64,000 nt of DNA from an uncultured Acidimicrobiaceae bacterium (GCA_963831535.1 CAWHQP010000003.1:131366-195365), one strand, 5' to 3'; shown: positions 651-60,566, counted from the first letter of the stretch. The notes: generated from the letters alone by a model not told the origin. A program made the numbers and translations.

Positions 651-2020
651 TCAGATGCGCTCGAAGTTGCGGGCCAACTCCCAGTCGGTGACCACCCGGT
701 TGGCCGTGGCCCACTCCTGTCGGGCCGTGTTCAGCAGATGGTGGTGCACTTCGGGCCCGAAGGCCTCTGCGGCCACCTCGCTCTCGGCCAGATGGTCGAT
801 CGGCCTCGCTCAGCGTGGTGGGGATGCGAGCAAGGCCCGGTGTGTTGTAGGCGTTCCCCTCGAAGGCCGGAGCCAGCTCGAGCTCGTGCTCGATGCCCCA
901 CAGACCGCCGGCGATGGCCGCGGCCAGGGCCAGGTACGGATTCACGTCGGCCCCGGGGATCCGGCTCTCCACCCGGCGCCCGGCGCCGTGACCCACGGCC
1001 CGGAACCCGCAGGTGCGGTTGTCCTCACCCCACACCATGGCCGTCGGTGCCCACGAGTCGGGGACGTACCGCCGGTAGGAGTTCACATAGGGGGCGAAGC
1101 ACCAGGCCAACTGGTCGGCGGCATGGAGTTGGCCGGCGACGAACTGGGCACCGATGGCCGAGAAGCCGGTGGGCGCATCCTCGCCCTCGGCCGGTGCCAT
1201 GAGCGGGGTGCCGTGCTCGGCGTCCCACAGGCTGGTGTGGAAGTGGCACGAGGAACCGGCGGTGTCCATGGACCACTTGGCCATGAAGGTGGCGGCCCGA
1301 CCGTATCCCGAGGCGATCTCCTTGACCCCGTTCTTGAACACCAGGTGCCGGTCGGCCACCTCAAGGGCGCTTCCGTAGGTGATGTTGATCTCATGCTGGC
1401 CGATGCCCGCCTCCCCCTTCGAGAACTCGATGGGGATACCCGCCTCCACCATCTGGTTGCGGATCTTGCCGATGATGTACTCCTCACGGGACGTCTGCAG
1501 CAGCTGGTAGTCCTCGATGGTGTCGGCATGGGGAGCCAGGCCCTGCCAGTGCTTCTGCGCCGCCTCGGCGAAGGAGTCGAGGAAGAGGTAGAACTCGAGC
1601 TCGGTGGCGCACTTGACCTCCAGGCCGTGTTCCGCCGCCCGCTCGATCTGTCGGCGCAGGATCCGGCGGGGCGAGACCTCGACGGGCTCGACCGTCCAGG
1701 GTCAAGAGGTCGCAGAGGACGAGGGCACTGCCCGGCAGCCAGGGCAGGGGCCGGACGGTCCGGGGGTCGATGACCGCGTGGAGGTCGCCGTAGCCGGTCT
1801 CCCAGTTGGCGAACCGGTAGCCCGGCAGGGGTTCCATGTCCACATCGCAGGCCATGAGGTAGTCGCACACCTCGATCCCGTGGTCGACCACGTGGTCGAG
1901 GAAGAACGAACCGGTGACCCGCTTGCCCACCGGTCGGCCCTGCAGGTCGGGGAAGGCGACCACCACCGTGTCGACTTCACCCGAACGGATCTGATGCGGC
2001 AGTGTCTCGAGGGTCAGCAT
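651..2020 (-). pseudogene. Glutamine synthetase-family enzyme (gamma-glutamyl-polyamine synthetase / PuuA- or GlnA3-like); frame broken about twice
   Basis: The N-terminus MLTLETLPHQIRSGEVDTVVVAFPDLQGRPVGKRV... lies in the tail of ORF 1484..2659(-). The middle part EPVEVSPRRILRRQIERAAEHGLEVKCATELEFYLF...MVEAGIPIEFSKGEAGIGQHEINITY...NSYRRYVPDSWAP...RIPGADVNPYLA is ORF 571..1452(-) plus its unlisted upstream extension. The C-terminus LSEAIDHLAESEVAAEAFGPEVHHHLLNTARQEWATANRVVTDWELARNFERI* is in a third frame ending at TGA 651-653. Frame switches are near 1695 and 800. The 1370-nt span is not divisible by 3. Confidence 0.8.
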
Positions 2021-2058
2021 GGAAGCACTTTGGTCCAGCCCGGCGTCGCCGTCCAGCG

Positions 2059-2837
2059 CTACTCGGGGGTGACATAGGCGGCGGTGATGCCGCCGTCGAC
2101 CACGAGGGCCGACCCGGTCACGAACGAGGCGTCGTCCGAGGCCAGGAACAGGGCAGCCCGGGCGATCTCCTCGGGCCGGCCGAAGCGTCCGATGGGGATG
2201 TGCACCAGCCGTCGCTGGCGTCGCTCCGGATCGGCAGAGGAGTTCGGCGAGCAGGGGAGTCTCGATAGGTCCTGGACAGATGGAGTTGGCCCGGATGCCC
2301 TGTCGGGCGTACTCGACGGCCAGCTCGCGGGTCATGGCCAGCACCCCACCCTTGGACGCGGTGTAGGCCATCTGGGCGGTGGCCGCGCCCACCAGGGCCA
2401 CGAAGGAGGCCACATTGACGATGGAGCCGCCTCCCGAGGCCAGCATGGCCGGCACGGCGGCCCGGCATCCCAGCCATACCCCCTTCAGGTTGACCTCCAT
2501 CACCTGGTGCCAGGTCTCCGGCGGGGTGTCGAGGAGCCCACCGTCGTCGGCGGGGAAGATGCCGGCGTTGTTGAACAGGACGTGCAGTCCGCCGTAGGCG
2601 TCCACCGCCCGGTCGATCATGGCCGCCACCTGGATCTCGTCGGACACGTCCACGGTCACCGCGGTGGCGGTGCCGCCGCGGCGGCGATGTCGGCCGCCGC
2701 CGACTCGGCGTCGGTCCGCCCTTCACGTCGGCCACCACCACCTGGGCGCCCTCGGCGGCGAAGAGGGACGCCGCCACCCGGCCGATGCCGCTTCCGGCGC
2801 CGGTGATCACCGCAACCTTGCCGTCCAGTCGTGCCAT
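2059..2837 (-). pseudogene. Short-chain dehydrogenase/reductase (SDR); frameshifted
   Basis: ORF 2118..2837(-) starts MARLDGKVAVITGAGSGIGRVAASLFAAEGAQVVVADV (TGxxxGxG Rossmann motif) and then degenerates. The core VTVDVSDEIQVAAMIDRAVDAYGGLHVLFNNAGI...[37 protein letters not shown] (NNAG and YxxxK motifs) is in ORF 1484..2659(-). The C-terminus ...[23 protein letters not shown] is in a third frame with its stop at 2059-2061. Breaks are near 2675-2720 and near 2235. Confidence 0.8.
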
Positions 2838-58292: not shown

Positions 58293-58575
58293 CTGGCGCC
58301 GAAGGCCCGGGGCGGCAGGCGCAAGAAGCCGTCCGAACGCGGTCTCTGGCGGCGGTCATGGCGACGGGCGTGCAGGCACGCCGCAGGTTGCCACAACCGA
58401 TGGACCTCCACAACTAACACCGGCGAGCGGTCTTGGTCGGACCTGTGGACGGCATCGCCCTCCTTGACACCGGTCCGACCACCGCCGATGATCTCGTGAT
58501 GGTCGATCCGGGGGGCTCGGAAGTCCGCAGCCGATGGGCTCCGGTTCGATCCCGTGCGATCGGAGAGGCGCGCCA

Positions 58576-60566
58576 ATGTGCGGCGTGACCGGGCTGTTCG
58601 ACCCGCGAGCGGGCCGATGCTGCGGCGACGCTCCGGCACCAGGTGGAGGCGATGACGGCCACCCTGGTCCATCGCGGGCCCGACGCCGAGGGCTACTGGG
58701 CGGACCCCGACCAGGGCGTGTGCTTCGGCCATCGCCGGCTGTCGGTGGTCGGGCTGGGGCAGGAGGGCGATCAGCCGATGATTCGGCGGACGGCCGATGG
58801 GTGGTCACCTTCAACGGGGAGATCTACAACCATCGCGACCTACGCCAGCGGCTGGCCCAGGAAGGCCTGGCCTTCCGAGGGGGATCGGACACCGAGGTGT
58901 TGGTAGGGGCGATCCAGCGCGTGGGGGCTCGACCGAGGCACTCGATGCCTGCGAAGGGATGTTCGCCCTGGCGCTATGGGACCGACAGCGCTCCGAACTG
59001 CACCTGGTCCGCGACCGCTTCGGCGAGAAGCCTCTGTACTACGGCTGGGTCGGCGAGTCGATGGCGTTCGCCTCCGAGCTGAAGGCCTTACGCACGCTGC
59101 CCCGATTCGACGCCGCCCTGGATCGTGACGCGGTAGCCCTGTACCTCCGGCACAACTGCATTCCCGGCACCTCACACCATCTACCGGCGTACCGCCAAGC
59201 TCCTGCCCGGCCAGATGGTGACCTTCGAGCGCGACCAGCCGGCCGGGCGAACCGCCCTCGTCCCGGAGCCTTCTGGTCGGCCCGAAAGGCGGTCGAGTCG
59301 GCCCGTCGGCGATCCCCTGGCGGGACCGCCCGAGGTATTGGCCGACCAGCTCGAGTCGGCGTTGTCCGATTCCGTGGCCGCCCGCATGGTGGCCGACGTG
59401 CCGGTCGGCGCCTTCCTGTCCGGGTGGGATCGATTCCAGCGTGGTGGTGGCGCTGATGCAGCAGCACAGCGCCCGGCCGGTCCGCACGTTCACGGTGGGG
59501 TTCTCCGACCGGGCATTCGACGAGTCGGCCGAGGCGGCCGCCGTCGCCGCCCATCTCGGCACCGACCATACGCCGCTGTTGCTTACCGACGGCGACGGCG
59601 CTCGAGTCTGATCCCGGCGCTGCCAGACATCTGGGACGAACCCTTCGGCGACGTGTCGGAGATTCCCATGCACCTGGTCAGTCGCGCTGGCCCGCTCAGC
59701 AGGTGACCGTGTCCCTGTCCGGGGACGGGGGCGACGAACTGTTCGCCGGATACAACCGGCATGCTTGGCTCGAACGGCTGTGGCGGCGGGCCTCGGTCCT
59801 CCCCGGGCCCGTCCGGCGCGCCGCCGGCTCGGCCCTGGGCCTCCTCCCTCCGGCCCTGGTCGGGCGATCTGGCCCGGGCCGGAGGGACGGCTCTCGCCGC
59901 GGCTGCACGGTGATCCGGAACCCGGCGTCCAAGGTGGCCAAACTGGGCAAGGTGCTGGCCGCCTGCCGGTCCCGAGGATGCCTACCTGTCGCTGGTCTCC
60001 TACTGGGACGACGCCGAGTCGATGGTGGTAGGTGCCGGCCCGAGTGTCTCGGTGGCATCCCGCCCTTCGGAGTGGCCCGAGCTCGCCGGCATCACCGAGC
60101 AGATGCTGTGGTTGGACCTCGTCGGCTATCTCCCCGATGACATCCTGACCAAGCTGGACCGGGCGTGCCATGGCCACGTCCCTCGAGACGCGGGTGCCGT
60201 TCCTCGACCGGGCGCGTCTTCGAGCTGGCCTGGAGGCTGCCCATGGGCGTGAAGCTCCACGACGGCACCACCAAGTGGCTGCTGCGACAGGTGCTCTACC
60301 GGCATGTGCCGGCCTCGTTGGTGGAGCGGCCGAAAATGGGGTTTGGCTTTCCGATCGGAGCCATGCTGCGAGGACCGCTGCGCGGGTGGGGAGACGAGCT
60401 GCTCGGCGAGGAGAGGCTCCGTCATCAGGGCCTGCTCCGCCCGGAGCCGGTCCGACGGGCCTGGGACCTGCACCTCAGTGGTCGGCGGGACCTGGCCCAC
60501 GAGCTCTGGGCCGTCCTGGCCCTACAGGCCTGGATCGAGCGATGGGTGCCGGATCTCAGCGGGTAG
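58576..60566 (+). pseudogene. Glutamine-hydrolysing asparagine synthase-family amidotransferase (AsnB/WbpS-like); at least 8 frameshifts
   Basis: The pieces run in order. ORF 58534..59082 gives MCGVTGLFDPR (Cys2 nucleophile). ORF 58643..58906 gives MTATLVHRGPDAEGYWADPDQGVCFGHRRLSVVGL..GDQPM. ORF 58534 again gives WVVTFNGEIYNHRDLRQRLAQEGLAFRGGSDTEVL. ORF 58797..59456 gives EALDACEGMFALALWDRQRSELHLVRDRFGEKPLYYGW. ORF 59215..59706 gives [25 protein letters not shown]. An unlisted frame gives the PP-loop remnant G(I)[15 protein letters not shown] 59703..60140 gives VSLSGDGGDELFAGYNRH. ORF 60022..60252 gives EQMLWLDLVGYLPDDILTKLDRA. ORF 60170..61000 gives SLETRVPFLD. ORF 60165..60566 gives KWLLRQVLYRHVPASLVERPKMGFGFPIG...WAVLALQAWIERW. 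Confidence 0.75.

What the first reader, a model, noticed from the sequence alone, without database searches (positions are those of the whole stretch)
651..60566. Frameshifts are abundant but strongly clustered: accessory clusters are shattered while long runs of core genes are intact
Seen in sequence, counted by eye (so approximate):
- About 10 frame breaks in 651-5900.
- 3 breaks in iscS-mnmA (14860-15480).
- Single breaks near 22740, 39293 and 42100.
- 2 breaks in 45684-47023.
- At least about 45 breaks in 47301-60566.
- None in 6580-14055, in 16324-22035, in any coding region from 23022 to 38911, or in 60609-64000.

After frame repair, the translations keep family motifs and catalytic residues. 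Examples are ALDH ELGGKS with the Cys segment, AsnB Cys2, Wzt Walker A/B and the IscS PLP lysine. I noticed no in-frame stop codons in the segments I reconstructed.

Where I could resolve the junction, the simplest repair is removal of one G or C next to identical bases. Examples are GGG near 5019, the C5 run at 48148-48152, CC near 39293 and CC near 15480. A CGCGC slip occurs near 22740.

Inference: this pattern fits homopolymer-type indel errors or consensus problems in strain-variable or low-coverage regions. It could also reflect very recent slipped-strand inactivation. It does not fit old pseudogene decay.

The non-random distribution is the interesting part. A uniform error process should not leave 5-7 kb stretches clean next to stretches with one break per 250 bp.
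Basis: partly seen in the sequence, partly recalled or inferred. Interest (0 to 1): 0.7.

Follow-up and report, generated by a model that had tools for sequence, protein, structure and literature searches.

The report
Frameshifts from mixed-strain consensus assembly
The clustered frameshifts are really in this sequence, but they are assembly artefacts that arise where two co-occurring strain variants were merged into one consensus, so they are not dying genes.

Summary
The clustering is real and stronger than reported. Against independent assemblies of the same soil/peat Acidimicrobiales population, the window has about 216 indel events. About 159 of them break frames inside the ten genes of 47301-60566. 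Long stretches such as 24-45 kb are essentially identical.

All of these genes are intact in the other assemblies: ENA contig_4308, two JGI contigs and Logan short-read contigs.

Indels occur almost only where the window also carries dense SNPs (206 of 214 frame-breaking indels). Those SNPs are third-codon-position, mostly synonymous alleles that are also seen in related species.

The indels are not homopolymer-type. 71% of one-base insertions have no identical neighbour, and runs of two or more are depleted. The inserted base usually equals the alternative allele of the adjacent polymorphic site (70% against 29% in matched controls). Deleted bases sit on polymorphic sites.

The consensus therefore emitted both alleles, or neither, at strain-variable sites. 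This is a collapsed mixed-haplotype consensus artefact.

"Homopolymer-type errors" and "accessory versus core" are not: iscS and mnmA are hit too.

There is no biological novelty. There is some methodological interest, because 11 of 42 long-read MAG relatives show the same shattering at this locus.

The parts
651..6524 (.). First shattered segment. Genes: GS-like (651-2020, -), adh_short (2059-2837, -), Peptidase_C26 (3003-3779, +), aldehyde dehydrogenase (3776-5170, +), GT1 (5282-6524, +). It holds 16 frame-breaking indels and about 60 SNPs (1.5-2%) relative to contig_4308.
   Evidence: All five genes are intact in L099. SNP codon positions 1/2/3, pooled over these five genes plus iscS and mnmA, are 22/5/48.
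11184..11184 (+). One-base deletion (GGG to GG) in codon 6 of the AMP-binding gene (11169-12571).
   Evidence: Only one independent assembly covers this site, so which version is correct is unresolved.
14055..16327 (+). iscS-like (14055-15248) and mnmA (15253-16327), both core genes. Three frame-breaking indels at 14858 (+1), 15199 (-1) and 15476 (+1), inside a local cluster of about 15 SNPs.
   Evidence: Both genes are intact (397 and 357 aa) in contig_4308; mnmA is also intact in the JGI contig, which ends inside iscS.
22136..23019 (+). adh_short gene with two +G insertions, at 22738 and 22741.
   Evidence: Both contig_4308 (L090) and the JGI contig (L091) lack them and encode an intact 293-aa protein.
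38987..39913 (-). Epimerase gene with a +G insertion at 39291/39292.
   Evidence: The JGI contig has an intact 308-aa gene. contig_4308 has its own separate indel 3 bases away.
41288..43370 (-). Polysacc_synt_2 gene with a +C insertion at 42104.
   Evidence: The insertion is absent from four independent assemblies (L070, L071, L072, L073).
45684..47023 (+). Membrane protein gene (445 aa) at the left edge of the variable region. It has 53 SNPs and 2 insertions.
   Evidence: Short-read contigs L072-L075 all end at 46125-46145.
47301..60566 (.). Main shattered segment: a Wzm/Wzt ABC-transporter-type glycan cluster. Frame-breaking events per gene:
- GT4+sulfotransferase (47301-49367, -): 12
- GT1 (49522-50759, +): 17
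- WbsX (50823-51886, +): 21
- GT4 (51901-52989, -): 29
- Wzm (53224-54217, +): 16
- Wzt (54201-55400, +): 11
- GT2 (55457-56296, -): 2
- hypothetical (56563-57502, +): 10
- sulfotransferase (57436-58359, -): 20
- AsnB (58576-60566, +): 21
SNP density against the reference haplotype is 0.7-10%.
   Evidence: All genes are intact in L070, L071 and L077; L001 carries the C-terminal 300 aa of AsnB as an open frame. Allele-duplication signature.
24086..45004 (.). Control stretch. It is essentially identical to contig_4308: 2 mismatches and 3 gap bases in 20.9 kb.
60609..64000 (.). Clean right flank: a 297-aa gene, GT4 and a DUF3473 deacetylase. There are 1-2 SNPs and no indels against three assemblies.

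Best explanation
The window comes from a metagenome-assembled contig of a soil/peat Acidimicrobiales bacterium. Its consensus was built from reads of at least two co-occurring haplotypes. The contig is probably long-read, but that is inferred.

Where the haplotypes are identical, the consensus is clean. Where they differ, the assembler or polisher collapsed them into one path and mishandled the variable sites. The affected places are a surface-glycan cluster at 46-60.4 kb, a metabolic cluster at 0.65-5.9 kb, iscS-mnmA and a few isolated sites.

At many variable sites the consensus took one allele or the other, giving a fine-scale mosaic. At about one variable site in four it emitted both alleles side by side, which is a one-base insertion. 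Less often it emitted neither, which is a one-base deletion. Each such event breaks the reading frame.

The frameshifts are therefore consensus artefacts at strain-polymorphic sites. They are not homopolymer read errors and not mutations in the organism.

Shown:
- Genes are intact in independent assemblies.
- Indels and SNPs co-localise.
- The context is not homopolymeric.
- The inserted base equals the alternative allele.
- Deletions fall on polymorphic sites.

Inferred:
- Which software step did this.
- That the source is a long-read assembly.
- The number and abundance of the haplotypes.
For: 1. Independent assemblies have intact genes.
- ENA ERZ25039454 contig_4308, two JGI 3300037133 contigs and Logan short-read contigs from several runs encode every affected gene intact. 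They agree with each other.
- The window is about 100% identical to them outside the shattered stretches.

2. Indels track SNPs.
- 206 of 214 frame-breaking indels lie in SNP-bearing 500-bp bins; Spearman 0.75.

3. The SNPs are genuine biological alleles.
- They are biased to codon position 3. Wzt has 11/11/59 by codon position, with 58 synonymous against 23 non-synonymous.
- Amino-acid changes are conservative and the repaired proteins are full length.
- Every window allele tested is present in related species. Relatives carry the window allele at 430 sites and the reference allele at 110.

4. The indels are not homopolymer-type.
- The reference run of the inserted base is 0 in 71%, 1 in 27% and 2 or more in 2%. 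Random expectation is 49/28/23%.
- The 27% matches what is expected if the inserted base is an allele of one neighbouring site.

5. Both-alleles signature.
- The inserted base is an allele common in relatives at the adjacent site in 68% of cases (L070 tile) and 82% (L077 tile). Random controls give 25-30% (p = 1.5e-17 and 5.6e-10).
- Against controls matched for codon-junction class and base, the figures are 70% against 29% (p = 7e-14).
- 53 of 53 testable junctions adjoin a family-variable site, against 63% of random junctions.
- Junctions flank codon position 3 in 108 of 130 cases (p = 2e-5).

6. Deletions fall on polymorphic sites.
- Relatives differ from the reference base at 0.62 and 0.72 of deleted sites, against 0.26 at random sites.
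- The deleted base is at codon position 3 in 23 of 38 cases.

7. Allele mosaic.
- 80 sites share derived alleles with the reference haplotype only.
- 86 sites lack derived alleles that the reference shares with a more distant species (L005).
- There are 59 switches between the two classes across 8 kb.

8. Independent sign of coexisting haplotypes.
- Short-read contigs from four samples terminate at 46125-46145.
- JGI contigs break at about 54.9-55.0 kb.
- L001 starts at 59652.

9. No intact copy of the window's own GT4 allele exists among 5.8 billion proteins. The best hit is the reference haplotype at 86%.

10. Literature.
- Flye collapses close strains into consensus contigs (PMC8302730).
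- Polishers produce haplotype mixtures and frameshifts in heterozygous coding regions (PMC8092372).
- Soil nanopore assemblies have only 57-70% full-length proteins (PMC13087279).
Against: - No reads are available, so mixed read support at the indel sites and local coverage were not observed directly.
- The second haplotype was not recovered as an independent intact sequence. The 'alternative allele' is therefore inferred from other species, not from the co-assembled strain itself.
- Eight indels lie in SNP-free bins (for example 5023, 5819, 22738/22741, 39291, 42104). They cannot be tied to a visible polymorphism and may be ordinary read or consensus errors.
- A fine-scale allele mosaic could in principle arise from frequent natural recombination, so alone is not decisive.
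- The strong excess of insertions over deletions (166 to 50) fits 'both alleles kept', but I did not reproduce it with any polisher.
Confidence: 0.85

Rival explanations
1. These are ordinary long-read sequencing or consensus errors, either homopolymer-type or from low coverage. They occur in a region where this strain's private haplotype has low depth. On this view the SNPs are one real diverged haplotype and the indels are random noise.
For: - Indels are confined to regions where the window differs from the common haplotype. That is where a minor strain would have lower private coverage.
- Soil long-read assemblies are known to be rich in frameshifts (PMC13087279).
- A few isolated indels extend a base into a two-base run (39291, 42104).
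Against: - Insertions are depleted, not enriched, in homopolymers.
- Random errors would not preferentially carry the alternative allele of the neighbouring polymorphic site: 70% against 29% in matched controls, p = 7e-14.
- Random errors would not land on polymorphic third-codon sites.
- contig_4308's own error at 21455 (C6 versus C7) shows what a true homopolymer error looks like here.
- The allele mosaic does not fit one clean haplotype.
Confidence: 0.1
2. The frameshifts are real. On this view the strain carries a recently inactivated glycan cluster and other genes, through slipped-strand or other mutational inactivation.
For: - Surface-polysaccharide loci are common targets of phase variation and loss.
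- The sequence as deposited does contain the breaks.
Against: - There are up to 29 breaks per gene and about 159 in 13 kb, with only one nonsense change among about 800 substitutions.
- The substitutions show purifying selection.
- The indels are biased towards insertions, the opposite of bacterial pseudogene decay.
- The sites are not repeats.
- Essential iscS and mnmA are hit.
- No known mutational process places the alternative allele next to the original base.
- All independent assemblies are intact.
Confidence: 0.02
3. The window is correct and the other assemblies are wrong or over-corrected.
For: None specific. contig_4308 does have a few errors of its own, at 21455 and 39294.
Against: Three kinds of assembly from different samples agree with each other and give full-length, family-typical proteins: an ENA contig with Flye-style naming, JGI contigs and Logan short-read contigs. 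The window's version does not.
Confidence: 0.01

Closest known systems
Collapsed-strain consensus contigs in long-read metagenome assembly (metaFlye behaviour described in the Strainberry paper, PMC8302730)
   Same: Closely related co-occurring strains are merged into one consensus contig. SNV-dense stretches mark the collapsed haplotypes. Indels cause frameshifts and lost marker genes.
   Different: Here I show the specific base-level signature without using reads. Indels sit at the variant sites themselves, and insertions carry the second allele. I did not find that signature spelled out in the papers I read.
Haplotype-mixture and frameshift errors made by polishers in heterozygous regions of diploid assemblies (Hapo-G paper, PMC8092372)
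   Same: Locally acting consensus tools and polishers switch between haplotypes. They can leave or add frameshifts in heterozygous coding regions.
   Different: That work concerns diploid eukaryotes and short-read polishing. Here the 'heterozygosity' is strain microdiversity in a bacterial population, with divergence up to 10% or more.
Homopolymer indel errors of nanopore, PacBio CLR, 454 or Ion Torrent data
   Same: One-base indels that truncate predicted proteins; the IDEEL-type symptom (PMC9262707, PMC13087279).
   Different: The defining homopolymer context is absent. Only 2% of insertions fall in runs of two or more, against 23% expected.
Phase-variable contingency loci, or genuine pseudogenes
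   Same: Frameshifted surface-polysaccharide genes.
   Different: There are no repeat tracts. There are dozens of breaks per gene. Substitutions show purifying selection. The genes are intact in independent assemblies of the same population.

Membership tests
Mixed-haplotype (collapsed-strain) consensus artefact | The same genes are intact in independent assemblies of the same population | tested here: met
   All affected genes are full length in contig_4308, the JGI contigs or the Logan contigs.
Mixed-haplotype (collapsed-strain) consensus artefact | Errors are confined to segments that are polymorphic between strains | tested here: met
   206 of 214 frame-breaking indels lie in SNP-bearing bins; Spearman 0.75. 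Short-read contigs break at the edges of the region.
Mixed-haplotype (collapsed-strain) consensus artefact | Indel sites coincide with variant sites and carry both alleles or neither | tested here: met
   70% against 29% in matched controls (p = 7e-14). 53 of 53 junctions lie next to variable sites. Deletions fall on variable sites.
Mixed-haplotype (collapsed-strain) consensus artefact | The consensus is a mosaic of alleles that fits no single tree | tested here: met
   80 against 86 conflicting informative sites, with 59 switches in 8 kb. Dense natural recombination is not strictly excluded.
Mixed-haplotype (collapsed-strain) consensus artefact | Reads at these sites show two or more alleles, and no read has the consensus indel | not testable with these tools
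   No read data are available.
Homopolymer-type sequencing error | Indels lie within or extend runs of identical bases | tested here: not met
   The identical-base run at the site is 0 in 71%, 1 in 27% and 2 or more in 2%. Random expectation is 49/28/23%.
Genuine pseudogenes / reductive decay | Relaxed selection (nonsense and non-synonymous changes), deletion bias, and the lesions shared by independent samples | tested here: not met
   Substitutions are biased to codon position 3 and are mostly synonymous. There is one stop. Insertions outnumber deletions 166 to 50. The lesions are absent from the other assemblies.
Phase variation by slipped-strand mispairing | Length change in a simple-sequence repeat, typically one switch per gene | tested here: not met
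   The sites are not repeats. There are 2-29 breaks per gene.

The most novel reading that the evidence does not exclude
The extra and missing bases might really exist in the DNA of a sub-population. For example, an unknown error-prone resolution of heteroduplex recombination between two diverged cluster alleles could leave both alleles in tandem at mismatch sites. That would kill a whole surface-glycan cluster in one step.
Probability: 0.02. Interest if true: 0.8.

Novelty: not a real feature. Interest (0 to 1): 0.15.

Why it matters
Biologically this is ordinary. The organism almost certainly has intact genes, so annotating these loci as pseudogenes would be wrong.

Three practical points follow.

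1. Misleading annotation and metabolic inference. A conserved, probably sulfated, surface-glycan cluster and core genes such as iscS and mnmA appear dead in this MAG.

2. A read-free diagnostic. The signature is one-base insertions that duplicate the alternative allele next to third-codon polymorphic sites, with no homopolymer context, co-localised with SNP clusters. It could flag collapsed-strain consensus regions in published long-read MAGs.

3. The problem looks recurrent. 11 of 42 long-read MAG species representatives show similar shattering at the homologous locus. None of 20 other loci, mostly short-read MAGs, does.

The underlying real biology is modest. At least two diverged alleles of a surface-glycan locus coexist in otherwise identical genomes. 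That is the familiar O-antigen or capsule pattern.

Tried and rejected
- **Chimeric query.** I joined 15 fragments of the broken genes into one query for the search for homologous proteins. It returned only long multidomain glycosyltransferases and no near-identical hits, so one search was wasted.
- **Exact-protein look-ups that failed.** These were GatA with my guessed start, aldehyde dehydrogenase at 12634, and MFS at 23007. The start codons were wrong or the sequences differed. I then hopped along contig_4308 using gene starts taken from the returned gene tables.
- **Counting frameshifts from tblastn HSP frame changes.** This undercounts badly, because in 70% GC DNA tblastn reads straight through out-of-frame stretches at about 54% identity. 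I replaced it with direct nucleotide alignment to same-population assemblies.
- **Codon-usage Viterbi frame tracker.** It is useful for relative comparison. However, it calls false shifts at overlapping gene boundaries (baseline about 2-4.5 per 10 kb) and misses compensating shifts.
- **Search for an intact copy of the window's own GT4 allele.** None was found. The best hit is the reference haplotype at 86%.
- **Rfam and tRNA scans of the window.** Nothing was found.
- **Explanations considered and rejected.** These were homopolymer errors, real pseudogenes, phase variation, and 'the window is right and the others are wrong'. Details are under the rival explanations.

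
Full report
**What the window is**

The window is a 70% GC piece of actinobacterial chromosome. It encodes LigA, a PknB-type kinase with PASTA domains, GatCAB and MMPL. It also carries a Wzm/Wzt ABC-transporter-type glycan cluster with several glycosyltransferases, three sulfotransferases and AsnB.

A genome-collection scan with the repaired Wzt protein returned 67 related loci. Nearly all are soil or peat Acidimicrobiales/Acidimicrobiaceae MAGs, and many are Microflora Danica nanopore MAGs. The best nucleotide identity of any locus alignment to the window is about 86%, and the long alignments spanning the cluster are 73-82%, so the source genome itself is not among them. 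The 47-60 kb cluster is syntenic in many of them. It is therefore a conserved family feature, not a strain accessory.

**Independent assemblies of the same population**

Exact-protein look-ups with intact window genes returned contigs that are essentially the same genome from other assemblies. I walked along them using the gene starts given in the returned tables. Together they tile the window.

| Source | Loci | Window range |
|---|---|---|
| ENA ERZ25039454 contig_4308 (1.84 Mb) | L099, L098, L090, L081, L070 | 1-55732 |
| JGI 3300037133 | L091, L080, L071 | 15050-55042 |
| JGI 3300037133 | L077 | 54919-64000 |
| Logan short-read contigs | L001, L002, L072-L076 and others | several runs, partial |

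Every gene that is broken in the window is full length in these assemblies (gene tables).

**Checking the observation**

Base-by-base comparison gives 799 SNPs and 216 indel events.

- Clean stretches are truly clean. Window 24086-45004 differs from contig_4308 by 2 mismatches and 3 gap bases in 20.9 kb.
- The shattered stretches hold far more breaks than were counted by eye. There are 159 frame-breaking events inside the ten genes of 47301-60566 and 16 in 651-6524.
- The smaller sets are 3 in iscS-mnmA, 2 at 22738/22741, and one each at 39291 and 42104.
- One break was missed. It is a one-base deletion at 11184, in codon 6 of the AMP-binding gene.
- The clustering is extreme. The 74 SNP-free 500-bp bins contain 8 frame-breaking indels. 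The 54 SNP-bearing bins contain 206 (Spearman 0.75, p = 1e-24).

**The key new fact: indels travel with SNP clusters**

Wherever the window has indels, it also differs from the other assemblies by substitutions.

| Window range | SNP density |
|---|---|
| 0.65-4.5 kb | 1.5-2% |
| 14.86-15.81 kb | about 2% |
| 47-60.4 kb | 0.7% rising to 10% |

The density drops to zero after 60377.

These substitutions are not noise.

- They are biased to codon position 3 and are mostly synonymous. Wzt has 11/11/59 by codon position, with 58 synonymous and 23 non-synonymous.
- After removing the indels, the window's proteins are full length. Their replacements are conservative (K/R, D/E, I/V, S/T), and there is only one stop.
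- At sites where the window and the reference differ, related species carry the window's allele at 430 sites and the reference allele at 110.
- No window allele is absent from the relatives.

So the window carries real alternative alleles in these stretches.

**The indels are not homopolymer errors**

- Insertions dominate: 166 events against 50 deletions.
- However, the inserted base has no identical neighbour in the reference in 71% of cases, one in 27%, and a run of two or more in only 2%.
- Random expectation in this sequence is 49/28/23%.
- By contrast, contig_4308's own error at 21455 is a classic C6/C7 homopolymer slip.

**What the indels are**

I used the 67 related loci as a catalogue of alleles.

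- The inserted base equals an allele carried by at least 30% of relatives at the adjacent site in 68% of testable insertions (47.3-55.3 kb) and 82% (55.3-60.6 kb).
- Random controls give 25-30% (p = 1.5e-17 and 5.6e-10).
- With controls matched for codon-junction class and inserted base, the result is 70% against 29% (p = 7e-14).
- All 53 testable junctions adjoin a family-variable site, against 63% of matched random junctions.
- Insertion junctions flank codon position 3 in 108 of 130 cases (p = 2e-5).
- Deleted bases are at codon position 3 in 23 of 38 cases (p = 5e-4).
- Deleted bases lie on sites that vary among relatives: 0.62 and 0.72 against 0.26.

Typical examples are reference ACGGT-GACCC against window ACGGTCGACCC, and reference TGTAC-GCCGA against window TGTACTGCCGA. 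In each, the third-position base and its alternative allele stand side by side.

The consensus therefore kept both alleles (insertion) or neither (deletion) at strain-polymorphic sites. The 27% of insertions with one identical neighbour is what this model predicts by chance.

**Allele mosaic**

I took L005, the nearest other species to the reference haplotype, as a third taxon.

- 80 sites carry derived alleles shared only by the window and the reference.
- 86 sites carry derived alleles shared by the reference and L005 but not by the window.
- Only 5 sites are shared by the window and L005.
- The two conflicting classes switch 59 times over 8 kb. Reference-like sites dominate at 47-49 kb, and foreign sites dominate at 52-55 kb.

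No single tree fits. This is what site-wise voting in a mixed pile-up would give. Very dense natural recombination is not formally excluded by this test alone.

A search of 5.8 billion proteins found no intact copy of the window's GT4 allele. The best hit is the reference haplotype at 86%. This fits the window's version not being a real single haplotype.

**Independent signs of coexisting haplotypes**

- Short-read contigs from four samples all stop at 46125-46145.
- The two JGI contigs end at about 54.9-55.0 kb, inside wzt.
- A Logan contig starts at 59652.

Short-read assemblers break contigs in this way at strain-variable regions.

**Mechanism and confidence**

The best explanation is a collapsed mixed-haplotype consensus. 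Reads from at least two co-occurring strains were merged into one contig. The strains are identical over most of the genome but diverged in a few segments. The consensus or polishing step then mishandled the variable sites.

- I put about 0.95 on the frameshifts being artefacts of some kind.
- I put about 0.85 on this specific mechanism.
- The software responsible and the sequencing platform are inferred, not shown.

The literature supports the general phenomenon:

- Flye collapses close strains into consensus contigs (PMC8302730).
- Locally acting polishers create haplotype mixtures and frameshifts in heterozygous coding regions (PMC8092372).
- Soil nanopore assemblies have only 57-70% full-length proteins (PMC13087279).
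- The Microflora Danica MAGs were made with Flye plus one round of Medaka (PMC12313526).

**Rivals**

- Random low-coverage or homopolymer errors are contradicted by the non-homopolymer context and the allele-matching tests.
- Real pseudogenisation or slipped-strand switching is contradicted on several counts:
  - There are dozens of breaks per gene with only one nonsense change.
  - Substitutions show purifying selection.
  - The indels are biased towards insertions.
  - The sites are not repeats.
  - Essential genes are hit.
  - Copies elsewhere are intact.
- 'Window right, others wrong' is contradicted by the agreement of three kinds of assembly.

**Verdict**

- 'Homopolymer-type' and 'accessory versus core' are wrong.
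- It is not a biological feature.
- Interest is low, apart from a possible read-free diagnostic for collapsed-strain regions in long-read MAGs.
- The same locus looks similarly shattered in 11 of 42 long-read MAG relatives. None of 20 other loci, mostly short-read MAGs, shows it.

Noticed in passing
window 46125-46145; about 54919-55042; 59652: Contigs from independent short-read or JGI assemblies of several samples end at these points, which are the edges and interior of the variable glycan cluster. This suggests that the same locus is multi-allelic in several peat/soil samples.
   Followed up: partly
window 11184: A one-base deletion (GGG to GG) relative to contig_4308 in codon 6 of the AMP-binding gene. 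An overlapping open frame hides it. Only one other assembly covers the site, so it is unclear which version is correct.
   Followed up: partly
L090/L098 (contig_4308) at window 21455 and 39294; L091 at window 23762-23851: The comparison assemblies have a few errors of their own. A C6/C7 homopolymer slip splits the D12 adenine methyltransferase in contig_4308 (217 aa against 376 aa). There is an indel in its epimerase gene. The JGI contig has a garbled Pro-rich low-complexity stretch that splits the MFS gene. The window also has a 15-base in-frame difference at 23820.
   Followed up: partly
L053, L067, L060, L058, L018, L055, L062, L052, L050, L056, L054 (whole loci): 11 of 42 long-read (MFD 'contig_') MAG loci of other species show 9-36 frame switches per 10 kb around the homologous cluster, by a codon-usage frame tracker. 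The maximum is 4.7 in 20 other loci (mostly short-read MAGs, plus the intact reference loci L070, L071 and L077). Whether this is locus-specific in those genomes is unknown, because only 21 kb was held per locus.
   Followed up: partly
window 47301-55400 against L070: The common haplotype (contig_4308/JGI) is shifted towards A/T relative to the family. Of its private alleles, 232 are A/T where the window and relatives have G/C, against 38 the other way. Its private branch is about four times longer than the window's. The cause is unexplained. It may reflect a consensus-like second haplotype or A/T drift in that lineage.
   Followed up: partly
window 44021-63635 and L003-L067: A Wzm/Wzt ABC-transporter glycan cluster carries three sulfotransferase genes or domains, WbsX, several GT2/GT4 genes, AsnB and a DUF3473 deacetylase. 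It is conserved in synteny across more than 60 Acidimicrobiales species. This suggests a sulfated cell-surface polysaccharide typical of this soil/peat lineage.
   Followed up: no
window 30375-32800: About 2.4 kb with lower GC (about 64-65%) and almost no confidently coding frame, lying between GH43 and a 278-aa gene. The window's longest ORF here (29253-31544, 763 aa) is far longer than the 373-aa gene called in other assemblies. There are no Rfam or tRNA hits.
   Followed up: no
look-up histograms: Each look-up histogram reports a block whose longest contig is in the 0.2-1 Mb class, yet no contig of that size is listed among the places. It is possibly the window's own source contig.
   Followed up: no
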